From IMG/VR virus record IMGVR_UViG_2778261085_000008, positions 1 through 16,525 of that record: a stretch of 16,525 bases of DNA, one strand, 5' to 3'. Of the stretch, positions 3,001-6,000 are shown in pieces. Every line of letters starts with the position of its first letter. The first letter of the stretch is position 1. This stretch comes from a virus (taxonomy: Duplodnaviria > Heunggongvirae > Uroviricota > Caudoviricetes). The position numbers were made by a program.

Positions 3001-6000
3001 TGGATTTGATTAATTGCGGTTGCGTCTAAGTTCTGAGACATAATAAGTCCTCACTATATAAAGATATTCAGTGATGAGATAAATAATCAGTTAATTAAGA
3101 ACGATATTAATGACCTGCTGCGCGAAGTTTTCCGTCAGGTTCACCGGCAAGAGTCAGTAATTGTCCCTGGTCTTCCTGCAGAATAGTCAGGCGACCACCG
3201 CGATTGACATACATCGGCGTTTCGGTGGTGTCTTCTTCAGAAATTTTCCCGCGGTTAGTCGGGCGAACATATGAGAGTTTGTGTTTGATTTTCACACGGT
3301 TCTCATCAAACGGTTCGATTTCTAGGTTGAGCGAGACCTTACCTTTGGTTTTCGTGTTCATCACACCGGAAGCGACTTCACTGAGAACAGCGCCGATTTT
3401 GGTTTCAAATACGCCGCCGTCCAGCTCCCCGATAAATGCCTGCACATCAGTACTGCGTTCGCTAGCCATTTTGCTGCTCCCCATCATATCGACCCTGCAA
3501 GGTCGGTTGGTTTCTCCACAAAACAGAGAAGAACGCCTGCGGTGACTGCCGCCCGGATGGATTGGGTTATGAGCCCGTCGTCCGGTGATGCTCTTCTCTG
3601 TTTTGTAAAAAGAGCGGTACCAGCCGGAAGCAAGTGTACAAACTGGTACCGCCAAAGCAGTGGCTGTTGTGGTGGGGTTGTCACTCAGGCGTATGGTCAA
3701 CCTGACAATCCGGTGTCCTCAACGGGGAAAGAGTAACCCCGCCATACTTACCGCCGCGCCATTTCGCGGATTACCACAACGCTGAGAGCACTTAGCCAGT
3801 TACGGCACCACACTTTGTCGCGGTTCCATAAATGCCCTCATCGTTGCACCCTGGTCTCTTCCCTGGCGTCAAACCGAATCGCCACGCTGGTTAGGCGTCT
3901 TATCAGCATCATCATTGACTTGCACATTCCGGCTACCTGGTTTGTTTGCCCGAGCAAGGAGTGGATTGTCCCCTTTAACGTCCCCAGACCGCTAACGACG
4001 CATGTGCCATACGCCGTGTTACAATAAAATGTTCGGTATTAGTTACCAAAGAGACGATTACTCTTATGGTTGAATGTAATACCCCTGTTGAATATTTTCT
4101 TGCGTACTATTTGTTTTTCCTATATAACGAATTGGTTGTTTTATTTACATAATAAGAAGTTTTCTTAAATAAGTTTACATTGTTTTATCTTGCTATTTTT
4201 CAAAATTCAAGAACAATGAATTGTCGCTATCGGTAATTATTCTTTATGAAATTTTATAAATAACTCCCTGCTTTTGAGTTTTGTACGCAGTGTTTTTAGT
4301 TGTCGAGGACATAATGGATAATCAAAATACTCCTGTTTTTGATGTATGTGGTTGGTACTGTGTGCCAGTTAAAGATCATAATTCAGTTATAGTTCAACTG
4401 TCCTGCAAACAACCACCATTTGAATCTGATAAAATTATCGAAAGTCCAATATATTCTTTTCCCATAAAAGAAATACCAAATCTCATAAAAACATTACAAA
4501 ACATTTATGAAGAAAATAATTGATTATAAATCCAGTTCAAAAGTGAAGCGTCCATTTGGGCGCTTTTTTATTTACGAATCATTCCGGTCTTCGTATGCCC
4601 CGGACGGCTACTTCGTGGGCGTCCTGCCTGTTCGATATCTTATGTAGGTACATTATGTATCTGTAGGGTACATTGTCAAGTATAAAAAAACCTGCCGAAG
4701 CAGGTTCATAGACATTGATCAGGCTTTAATTTTGTATCTTCTTGGTTTTCCTGAGAAAATAACTGTACCAATGATAGAGCAATTACCGTTTATCTTAATG
4801 TAAGGCTCAGGCCAGTTGGGGTTTAATGCTTTGAGATAACGCTGTGTCCCGTCTTCTATCAACCTTTTGAAGGTGGTTTCACCTGTATCGTGCATCAATG
4901 CAATAACGTCATCGCCGTGGCAGGCTGGTACTTCTGGATCGACAAAAATCATGTCTCCCGGACGGTACTCATCAATCATTGAATCACCAATCACCCTCAA
5001 TATATAAGTCATTTCGCCACAGGGTACAGGGCAGGGATACGTTTCTGTTGTGCTCAAATCAACCTCAGAATAGCCAACTTCTTTCCATGCTCCGGCCTGT
5101 ACCCATGATATGACAGGGACTAACGTTATTTTTTTATTAGTGATTGAAACATCAGGTTTTTTTGTGATGTTCGTTGTCTGGTGTTCTTGATCAAGCCATC
5201 CGACAGGCAGGTCGAAACATTTTTCGATGTGCCGTGCCATGCTGTCACCGATATTTTTAGTAGCGCCATCCCCCATAAACCTGCTGGTCTGGGTAGGCTC
5301 GCGATCAATCATGGTGGCAAAGGATGAATTTCCGCCAACACCATCTCTCAGTTTTCTGGCGTTAGACCGCCGGATGTCATGGATTGTTTTCATAACGAAA
5401 TTAAAACCTTTGTACCGATAAGGTACAAGTATCTTGAAGGTTCATCTCAATCATGTAATATGTATACTGGAGGTACATGTTGTATGAAAGCGTATTGGGA
5501 CTCTTTAACCAAAGAACAGCAGGGCGAGTTAGCCGGAAAAGTTTGCTCAACACCTGGCTACTTACGGCTGGTTTTCAATGGCTATAAAAAAGCCAGCTTT
5601 GGACTGGCTAAAAAACTTGAGCAATGCACATCAGGTGCAATTACGAAATCTGACTTAAGACCGGATATCTATCCGAAAGATTAGCAGAAAATCTTCAATT
5701 TTTAACCACAGGAACAGGAGGTAAGCCGTGGGTAAGCATCACTGGAAAGTGGAAAAACAACCTGACTGGTATGTGAAAGCTGTCAGAAAAACTATCGCGG
5801 CATTGCCAGGTGGTTACGCTGAAGCTGCTGAGTGGCTGGATGTAACAGAGAACGCTTTATTCAACCGCCTTCGTGCCGATGGTGATCAGTTTTTTCCGTT
5901 GGGATGGGCAATGGTTTTACAGCGTGCGGCTAGTACTCATCACATTGCGGATGCTGTCGCACAGTCTGCTGGTGGGGTGTTTGTATCACTTCCTGAAATT

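What the first reader, a model, noticed from the sequence alone, without database searches (positions are those of the whole stretch)
4030..4700. AT-rich island with a small convergent gene sitting between the PL-like promoter and the early genes (rex/sieB-equivalent position)
Composition drops sharply to AT-rich. A single 69-aa ORF (4314-4523) with its own RBS and terminator is oriented against the leftward PL-like transcript, so the two transcripts would be antisense to each other. In lambdoid phages this position typically holds exclusion or lysogenic-conversion genes.
Basis: partly seen in the sequence, partly recalled or inferred. Interest (0 to 1): 0.45.

Follow-up and report, generated by a model that had tools for sequence, protein, structure and literature searches.

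The report
Prophage cargo gene: BssS-like protein
A 594-base AT-rich insert just downstream of the early-left promoter of an E. coli lambdoid prophage carries one real 69-residue gene, a divergent relative of the host biofilm regulator BssS. Such genes turn up beside the repressor in several unrelated temperate phages, so this is an ordinary accessory ("moron") gene with a mildly interesting identity.

Summary
Window 4027-4620 is 31.5% GC against about 55% on its left. It is a presence/absence insert between the PL/OL region and the conserved leader of the early-left operon of an SfV/e14/CPS-53-type prophage. It holds one gene, 4314-4523 (+), with a GAGGA ribosome-binding site and a one-way terminator, and it faces PL.

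The gene is real: against a 77%-identical allele, dN/dS is 0.13-0.2. It is rare: 30 of 5426 complete E. coli genomes, plus prophage scraps on IncF plasmids. About 70 genomes carry the empty site.

Pfam does not detect the protein. A BssS-family HMM built without it scores it at 27 bits (best of 2000 shuffles 7.9), and a bridging homologue passes Pfam BssS. BssS-like genes sit beside the repressor or early genes in Salmonella phage F1055, Pseudomonas phage PseuP_224, a Synechococcus phage and a metagenomic contig.

The rex/sieB-type exclusion reading has no support. There is no homology, the protein is soluble and acidic, and the gene is on the opposite strand, downstream of PL.

Most likely it is a lysogen-expressed BssS-like modulator of host physiology, silenced by PL read-through at induction. 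That function is inferred, not shown.

The parts
4027..4620 (.). AT-rich cargo insert (presence/absence polymorphism), 594 bp, 31.5% GC
   Evidence: Alignment with the empty-site prophage of strain R1 places the junctions after ...GTTACAA (4026) and before TCCTGCCTGT (4621). Composition. Present in 30 of 5426 genomes.
4027..4313 (+). Non-coding AT-rich upstream region (28% GC), presumed promoter region of the cargo gene
   Evidence: Only weak promoter candidates, 8 of 12 matches, the best being TTGCTA-16-AACAAT at 4190-4217. The small ORFs 4066-4168 are broken by frameshifts in relatives L023 and L008. Identity to the plasmid copy is 91%, against 98% for the ORF.
4305..4309 (+). Ribosome-binding site GAGGA, 4 nt before the ATG
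   Evidence: Read from the sequence. The variant allele has GGAGGG at the same place.
4314..4523 (+). 69-aa gene, a divergent C-terminally shortened BssS-family protein
   Evidence: Translation. dN/dS 0.13-0.2 with codon-position differences of 12:6:24 against the 77% allele. Bridging homologue P0006 passes Pfam BssS. Family HMM scores it 27.1 bits against a best shuffle of 7.9. hhalign E 3.7e-5. AF2 pLDDT 84.6.
4545..4575 (+). Intrinsic terminator of the cargo gene (9-bp stem, 4-nt loop, U-tract), effective rightward only
   Evidence: It is shared as the right end of the cargo slot with SfIV and PhiR29_1, whose homology resumes at 4535. It is also found with the variant allele in L002, L006 and L007.
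4652..4679 (-). PL-like early-left promoter TTGACA-16-CATAAT
   Evidence: 11 of 12 matches.
4656..4672 (.). OL operator, TGTATCTGTAGGGTACA, between the -35 and -10 of PL
   Evidence: The same motif occurs exactly at 5411-5427 and 5461-5477.
4688..4707 (-). Terminator of the cI transcript
4719..5393 (-). cI-type repressor (ymfK, LexA/S24 family)
5411..5477 (.). OR operators (two exact copies of the 17-bp motif) between cI and cro
3470..4026 (-). Conserved GC-rich, ORF-free leader of the early-left operon, now separated from PL by the insert
3107..3469 (-). yfdP, the first early-left gene
   Evidence: PGAP annotation of the 96.6%-identical locus L001. phrog_204.

Best explanation
Window 4027-4620 is a horizontally acquired accessory cassette (a 'moron') in the variable slot between the PL/OL region and the early-left operon of an SfV/e14/CPS-53-type lambdoid prophage.

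Shown:
- It is an indel relative to sister prophages.
- It carries one protein-coding gene under purifying selection, with its own RBS and a one-way terminator, facing PL.
- The product is a small, acidic, soluble, distant and C-terminally shortened member of the BssS family (beta-beta-beta-beta-alpha fold).
- BssS-like genes recur as lone genes beside the repressor or early operon of unrelated temperate phages.

Inferred:
- In the lysogen, cI keeps PL off, and the gene is transcribed from a weak promoter in its AT-rich upstream DNA.
- Like host BssS (reported to affect biofilm, indole and AI-2 signalling and gut colonisation resistance), the protein would act in the cytoplasm through protein-protein contacts to shift host surface, biofilm or stress behaviour.
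- On induction, strong leftward PL transcription runs antisense through the whole gene and shuts it off. Expression would therefore be tied to the lysogenic state.
For: - Indel and mosaic junctions.
- Rarity.
- Coding constraint: dN/dS 0.13-0.2. The ORF is 98.1% identical to the plasmid copy against 91% for the upstream DNA.
- Terminator asymmetry.
- PL and operators.
- BssS relationship, transitive: phmmer finds P0006 at E 1.3e-4 in 1.84 billion proteins, hhalign gives 97.7%, and P0006 scores 31.6 bits against a cut-off of 27 on Pfam PF13991.
- BssS relationship, PHROGs: phrog_10846 is hit in one register by P0006, E. coli BssS, the variant allele and the window ORF.
- BssS relationship, direct: hhalign against phage plus host BssS without P0006 gives E 3.7e-5 over 60 columns. 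A family HMM scores the ORF 27.1 bits, or 15.7 bits without P0006, against a best of 7.9 and 7.4 bits in 2000 shuffles.
- Structure: AF2 confidence rises from 68 to 85 when BssS rows are added, with the same topology.
- Recurrent position beside the repressor or early genes: L016, F1055, PseuP_224, Yong-L1-251.
- Link to adhesion: the second allele sits beside a two-partner-secretion adhesin operon with a LuxR-type regulator.
- BssS phenotypes: PMC3646849, which cites Domka et al. 2006.
Against: - No convincing promoter was found for the gene; the best candidates match 8 of 12, so expression in lysogens is unproven.
- The window ORF itself does not reach any Pfam, NCBIfam or PHROG threshold.
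- It lacks the C-terminal ~15 residues conserved in BssS.
- The molecular mechanism of BssS is unknown, so 'works like BssS' predicts little.
- The phenotypes reported for bssS are indirect.
- Gene position beside cI fits a phage-directed function equally well.
Confidence: 0.45

Rival explanations
1. Superinfection exclusion or anti-phage defence gene. The lysogen-expressed small protein would block infection by other phages.
For: The slot beside the immunity region classically holds such genes (general knowledge: rexAB, sieB). The slot is hypervariable among sister phages. The gene also travels on plasmids and islands, as defence genes do.
Against: No PADLOC, Pfam or NCBIfam match. The protein is soluble and acidic with no membrane segment, unlike SieB or RexB. 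It is a single 8-kDa protein with no enzymatic domain. Its family's one studied member is a host physiology regulator.
Confidence: 0.2
2. Modulator of the phage's own lysis-lysogeny switch. The small protein would bind cI, RecA or another SOS component and tune induction, which would explain why BssS-like genes sit next to repressor genes.
Against: About 70 prophages with the same repressor and operators lack the gene, so it is dispensable for the switch. The 77% allele lives away from any phage switch, next to an adhesin operon. The dinI synteny may be plain vertical inheritance.
Confidence: 0.15
3. Inert hitch-hiker or RNA-level element. The ORF would not be functional as a protein, and the AT-rich insert would matter only as a spacer, an H-NS-bound stretch or an antisense target that damps PL transcription.
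For: No clear promoter. Very AT-rich DNA. The insert adds about 600 nt of untranslated antisense leader to the PL transcript.
Against: Substitutions show a strong third-position bias, dN/dS is 0.13-0.2 and the frame stays intact across alleles 23% divergent in DNA. The ORF is better conserved than its flanks. There is detectable homology to a protein family. No leftward terminator lies in the insert.
Confidence: 0.05

Closest known systems
BssS (YceP) of Enterobacteriaceae, Pfam PF13991, NCBIfam NF008958
   Same: Small acidic cytoplasmic protein. It shares the G-W motif in strand 1, the alternating hydrophobic strand 2, the P/PP after strand 2 and the C-terminal helix with L-I-x-x-L. Profile-level homology is detectable.
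   Different: About 13% pairwise identity. It is 69 aa rather than 84 and lacks the conserved IESGD...H tail. It has three cysteines. It is not detected by the Pfam or NCBIfam models. It is encoded on a prophage, plasmids and islands rather than at the pyrC-dinI-bssS-solA chromosomal locus.
Phage BssS-like proteins (phrog_10846), for example Salmonella phage F1055 gp37, Pseudomonas phage PseuP_224 WAK44842 and Synechococcus phage Yong-L1-251 UPT53255
   Same: A lone small gene in the early or immunity region, next to or facing the repressor or early operon. The N-terminal hairpin is 35% identical to F1055.
   Different: Those proteins are 81-83 aa with the full C-terminal tail and reach the PHROG/Pfam-type profiles. 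The window ORF only reaches E 0.32 on phrog_10846. None has a known function.
Lambdoid 'morons' and lysogenic-conversion genes (general knowledge: lambda bor and lom, HK97 gp15)
   Same: A discrete insert absent from sister phages, with atypical composition, its own terminator, and transcription independent of and opposed to the flanking phage operon.
   Different: Its own promoter is not demonstrated, and the product family has not been described as a moron.
Lambda rexAB and lambda/P22 sieB exclusion genes
   Same: The neighbourhood of the immunity region, and presumed expression in the lysogen.
   Different: No sequence similarity, not a membrane protein, on the opposite strand, downstream of PL rather than between cI and OL, and not co-transcribed with cI.
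COMM domain (COMMD proteins) and PUR/PC4-like beta-beta-beta-alpha folds
   Different: Sequence identity is 3-15%. This rests on a predicted monomer only, and is fold resemblance rather than evidence of common function.

Membership tests
BssS family (Pfam PF13991) | Scores above the Pfam gathering threshold (27 bits) | tested here: not met
   The window ORF and its 77% allele give no hit even at E<=10. The 35%-identical relative P0006 scores 31.6 bits.
BssS family (Pfam PF13991) | Profile-level homology to bona fide members over most of the length | tested here: met
   An HMM of host BssS plus four phage BssS-likes scores the ORF 27.1 bits, or 15.7 bits without P0006, against a best of 7.9 and 7.4 bits in 2000 shuffles. 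hhalign gives E 3.7e-5 and 71% probability over 60 columns. Against the low-diversity enterobacterial BssS alignment alone the result is weak, E 0.057.
BssS family (Pfam PF13991) | Conserved motifs: G-W in strand 1, P after strand 2, L-I/F-x-x-L helix, C-terminal IESxD...H tail | tested here: inconclusive
   The first three are present. The C-terminal tail is absent because the protein ends at residue 69.
BssS family (Pfam PF13991) | Effect on biofilm and cell signalling | not testable with these tools
   This needs genetics. Only literature on E. coli bssS is available.
Phage moron / lysogenic-conversion cassette | Present in some and absent from otherwise collinear sister phages | tested here: met
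   30 genomes carry it and about 70 have the empty junction. SfV, SfIV, PhiR29_1 and mEp460 hold other cargo.
Phage moron / lysogenic-conversion cassette | Own promoter and terminator | tested here: inconclusive
   The terminator is clear and directional. The promoter is limited to 8-of-12 candidates.
Phage moron / lysogenic-conversion cassette | Base composition unlike the flanking phage DNA | tested here: met
   31.5% GC against 54.6% on the left and 44% for cI on the right.
Phage moron / lysogenic-conversion cassette | Expressed from the repressed prophage | not testable with these tools
   No transcript data. Neither protein accession appears in the held literature.
rex / sieB-type exclusion genes | Sequence or domain similarity to RexA, RexB, SieB or a catalogued defence protein | tested here: not met
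   No Pfam, NCBIfam or PADLOC hit.
rex / sieB-type exclusion genes | Membrane protein (RexB, SieB) | tested here: not met
   GRAVY -0.35, pI 4.6, and no hydrophobic segment in the sequence. The model is a soluble beta-sheet plus helix.
rex / sieB-type exclusion genes | rex position: between cI and OL/PL and co-transcribed with cI | tested here: not met
   The cI terminator at 4707-4688 directly abuts PL at 4679-4652. The gene is downstream of PL on the other strand.

The most novel reading that the evidence does not exclude
BssS-family proteins could be primarily a mobile-element family whose members act at the phage repressor/SOS interface or as lysogeny-state signals. Host bssS, which always sits next to the SOS gene dinI, would then be a domesticated copy. 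On this reading the prophage gene here would give a direct handle on the long-unknown molecular mechanism of BssS.
Probability: 0.1. Interest if true: 0.65.

Novelty: new member of a known kind. Interest (0 to 1): 0.3.

Why it matters
BssS is a widely cited "biofilm regulator" with no known mechanism. If prophages, plasmids and islands spread shortened BssS-like genes, and temperate phages repeatedly park them beside their repressor, then lysogeny may alter host biofilm or colonisation behaviour through this family. The phage copies would also offer small, separable models for finding the partner protein. For annotation, the result gives a family assignment to an orphan "hypothetical protein" (WP_021559686.1 and its relatives) that current Pfam and NCBIfam models miss. 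Otherwise this is a textbook mosaic cargo slot.

Tried and rejected
- Rfam scan of 3000-5800 at E<=5 found nothing credible, so there is no known RNA element in the island.
- Pfam, NCBIfam and PADLOC on the ORF gave no hits. PHROGs gave only E 0.3.
- tblastn of the ORF against 50,697 phage records found no match.
- GTDB species representatives were scanned twice (family alignment, then P0006) and gave no relative.
- IMG/VR gave 10 hits, all the same prophage context, so no new information.
- No solved structure exists for the family.
- Direct BLASTP of the ORF against E. coli BssS was not significant.
- The small hydrophobic ORFs upstream (4066-4152 and 4070-4168) were rejected as genes because frameshifts break them in L023 and L008.
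- No target-site duplication or simple insertion scar is present. The empty site holds 18 bp of different sequence, so the cassette arrived by mosaic recombination rather than transposition.
- The other cargo genes of the same slot (SfV orf33, SfIV orf35/36, the PhiR29_1 242-aa ORF, mEp460_037) have no Pfam or PADLOC identity, so the slot gives no functional hint.
- Literature search found no mention of the protein accessions and no paper on phage-borne BssS. Domka et al. 2006 is not held.

Full report
**Context.** The window is the early region of an E. coli lambdoid prophage of the SfV/e14/CPS-53 type.
- Going left from the switch: yfdP (3107-3469, -), yfdQ and yfdR.
- The switch itself: an S24/LexA-type repressor (ymfK/cI, 4719-5393, -) and a YdaS/Cro-type gene (5484-5684, +).
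- To the right: ymfL, Ash/Rha, KilA-N and a Q antiterminator.
- The closest complete genome, strain 377323_2f, is about 96-97% identical across 1546-6748.

- GC drops from 0.53-0.55 to 0.28-0.31.
- ORF 4314-4523 (+) encodes 69 aa. GAGGA lies 4 nt upstream of its ATG.
- A hairpin at 4545-4566 is followed by TTTTTTATTT.
- On the minus strand, TTGACA-16-CATAAT at 4679->4652 matches 11 of 12.
- A 17-bp motif, TGTAYN6GGTACA, lies between those hexamers (4656-4672). It recurs exactly twice between cI and cro (5411-5427, 5461-5477). The window gives 7 hits with up to 1 mismatch against 0.38 expected. This identifies OL/PL and OR.
- The cI transcript has its own terminator at 4707-4688.
- The gene therefore faces PL. 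Its mRNA stops about 70 nt short of the PL start, while a PL transcript would cover the whole gene in antisense.
- The hairpin is directional: -13.3 kcal/mol (z -3.9) with a U-tract rightward, and -7.7 kcal/mol (z -1.35) with an internal mismatch and a poor U-tract leftward. No leftward terminator was found in the insert.

**True boundaries and population behaviour.**
- SfV, SfIV and PhiR29_1 are homologous up to 3654 and again from 4535 (SfV from 4574). mEp460, cdtI and Stx2 phages are homologous up to 4033.
- Each of those phages holds different genes in the gap.
- A synthetic empty-site query found about 70 further E. coli genomes in which the left GC-rich module joins the PL region directly. 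This figure is 100 genomes with at least 80% coverage minus the 30 that carry the island.
- Alignment with strain R1 sets the indel at window 4027-4620. It is 594 bp and 31.5% GC. The empty site has 18 bp of unrelated sequence and no duplication, which indicates mosaic recombination.
- The island occurs in 30 of 5426 complete E. coli genomes and in 10 IMG/VR contigs of the same prophage.
- It also occurs, at 94% identity, within a prophage scrap (window 3460-4661) on IncF plasmids of Salmonella and E. coli.

**Is the ORF a gene?** Yes.
- A second allele is about 77% identical in DNA. Its homology is confined to 4267-4527, and in some copies it includes the terminator.
- It lies in quite different places: 418 bp downstream of a two-partner-secretion adhesin, HMW1C-like, DUF2919 and LuxR-HTH operon on IncF plasmids and chromosomal islands, or next to an IS element and a type I restriction gene.
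- The frame is intact. Differences by codon position are 12:6:24, and dN/dS is 0.13-0.2.
- Against the plasmid copy the ORF is 98.1% identical, while its upstream DNA is 91% identical.
- The small ORFs upstream are broken in relatives.

**What is the protein?**
- Standard libraries are silent.
- An exhaustive phmmer search of 1.84 billion representatives found, beyond the two alleles, one 85-aa protein, P0006 (35% identity, E 1.3e-4). hhalign against the ORF family gives 97.7% probability.
- P0006 passes Pfam BssS at 31.6 bits against a cut-off of 27. It also hits phrog_10846 at 2e-9.
- E. coli BssS (5e-5), the variant allele (0.043) and the window ORF (0.32) hit the same PHROG in the same register.
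- A profile of phage BssS-likes plus host BssS, without P0006, aligns to the ORF family over 60 columns at E 3.7e-5.
- An HMM of host BssS plus four phage or mobile BssS-likes scores the window ORF at 27.1 bits, or 15.7 bits without P0006. The best of 2000 shuffles scored 7.9 and 7.4 bits.
- The multiple alignment shows a shared G-W motif, strand pattern, P/PP and L-I-x-x-L helix. The ORF ends before the conserved C-terminal tail.
- AlphaFold confidence rose from 68 to 85 when BssS rows were added, with the same beta-beta-beta-beta-alpha topology.
- The protein is acidic and soluble: pI 4.6 and GRAVY -0.35.
- I therefore file it as a distant, shortened BssS-family member, noting that it fails the Pfam threshold itself.

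**Recurrent position.**
- P0006 lies beside a cI/Cro pair and is convergent with the repressor (L016).
- Salmonella phage F1055 has a BssS-like gene between its leftward early operon and its cI-like gene, convergent with the latter.
- Pseudomonas phage PseuP_224 has one immediately upstream of cI.
- Synechococcus phage Yong-L1-251 has one as a lone opposite-strand gene among early replication and regulatory genes.
- I found no paper describing this.

**How it most likely works.**
- Shown: a mobile cassette with a constrained BssS-like gene, a rightward terminator, and a position facing an operator-controlled PL.
- Inferred: it is expressed from a weak promoter in the AT-rich upstream DNA while cI keeps PL silent.
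- Inferred: it acts in the cytoplasm through protein contacts, as presumed for BssS. Loss of bssS alters biofilm, signalling and gut colonisation resistance (PMC3646849, citing Domka et al. 2006).
- Inferred: it is silenced by antisense PL read-through on induction.
- The adhesin-operon neighbourhood of the second allele fits a role in surface behaviour, but only weakly.
- Weak points: no convincing promoter, no expression data, and an unknown mechanism for BssS.

**Rivals.**
- Exclusion or defence (0.2): there is no positive evidence beyond the neighbourhood.
- Modulator of the repressor/SOS switch (0.15): suggested by adjacency to cI and by dinI-bssS synteny in hosts. Against it, the gene is dispensable in about 70 sister prophages and the second allele lies outside any phage.
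- Inert or RNA-only element (0.05): contradicted by the selection signal.

**Verdict.** The specific rex/sieB analogy does not. This is a new, divergent member of known kinds, namely a phage moron and the BssS family. The one modestly new observation is that BssS-like genes recur next to phage repressors.

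Noticed in passing
window 3470-4026 (- strand): A GC-rich (about 55%) leader between PL and yfdP with no conserved ORF on either strand. The stretch tested (3900-4025) is 99-100% identical in mEp460, cdtI and Stx2 phages. The minus-strand RNA folds at -216.7 kcal/mol (z -3.55), with a roughly 22-bp perfect hairpin and a 12-bp hairpin. There is no Rfam match. In empty-site prophages it is the first thing PL transcribes, so it may be a structured regulatory leader.
   Followed up: partly
window 4343-4359 (+): An operator-like sequence, TGTATGTGGTTGGTACT, with one mismatch to the OL/OR motif, lies inside the cargo ORF in the codons for VCGWY. It is probably chance, but it sits about 300 bp downstream of PL.
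   Followed up: no
L009 5048-5257 and L010 5048-5257 (E. coli TUM1881 chromosome and IncF plasmid): The 77%-identical allele of the gene lies 418 bp downstream of a two-partner-secretion adhesin, HMW1C-like glycosyltransferase, DUF2919 and LuxR-HTH operon. That block is duplicated between the chromosome and the plasmid.
   Followed up: partly
L008 4411-5630 (Salmonella plasmid pUWI-PP98.1): Conjugative IncF plasmids of Salmonella and E. coli from poultry carry a prophage scrap equal to window 3460-4661. It ends inside OL/PL and has an excisionase gene and an IS256 nearby.
   Followed up: partly
window 12794-15150: The Q antiterminator gene (12794-13177) is followed by a second AT-rich stretch (GC 31-38%, GC skew up to 0.49). 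It contains an Rce1-like CAAX protease ORF (13300-14118) and looks like another cargo island, this one in the late-promoter position.
   Followed up: partly
[not shown]
   Followed up: no
L015 3702-4488; L031-L033: Chromosomal bssS lies next to the SOS gene dinI (pyrC-dinI-bssS-solA) in E. coli, Pluralibacter and a metagenomic enterobacterium.
   Followed up: partly
window 4535-4620; L011 and L012 around 2990: The rightward terminator and about 55 nt beyond it are shared by phages carrying different + strand cargo (SfIV orf35/36, the PhiR29_1 242-aa ORF). They seem to serve as a common right end and recombination junction of the cargo slot.
   Followed up: partly
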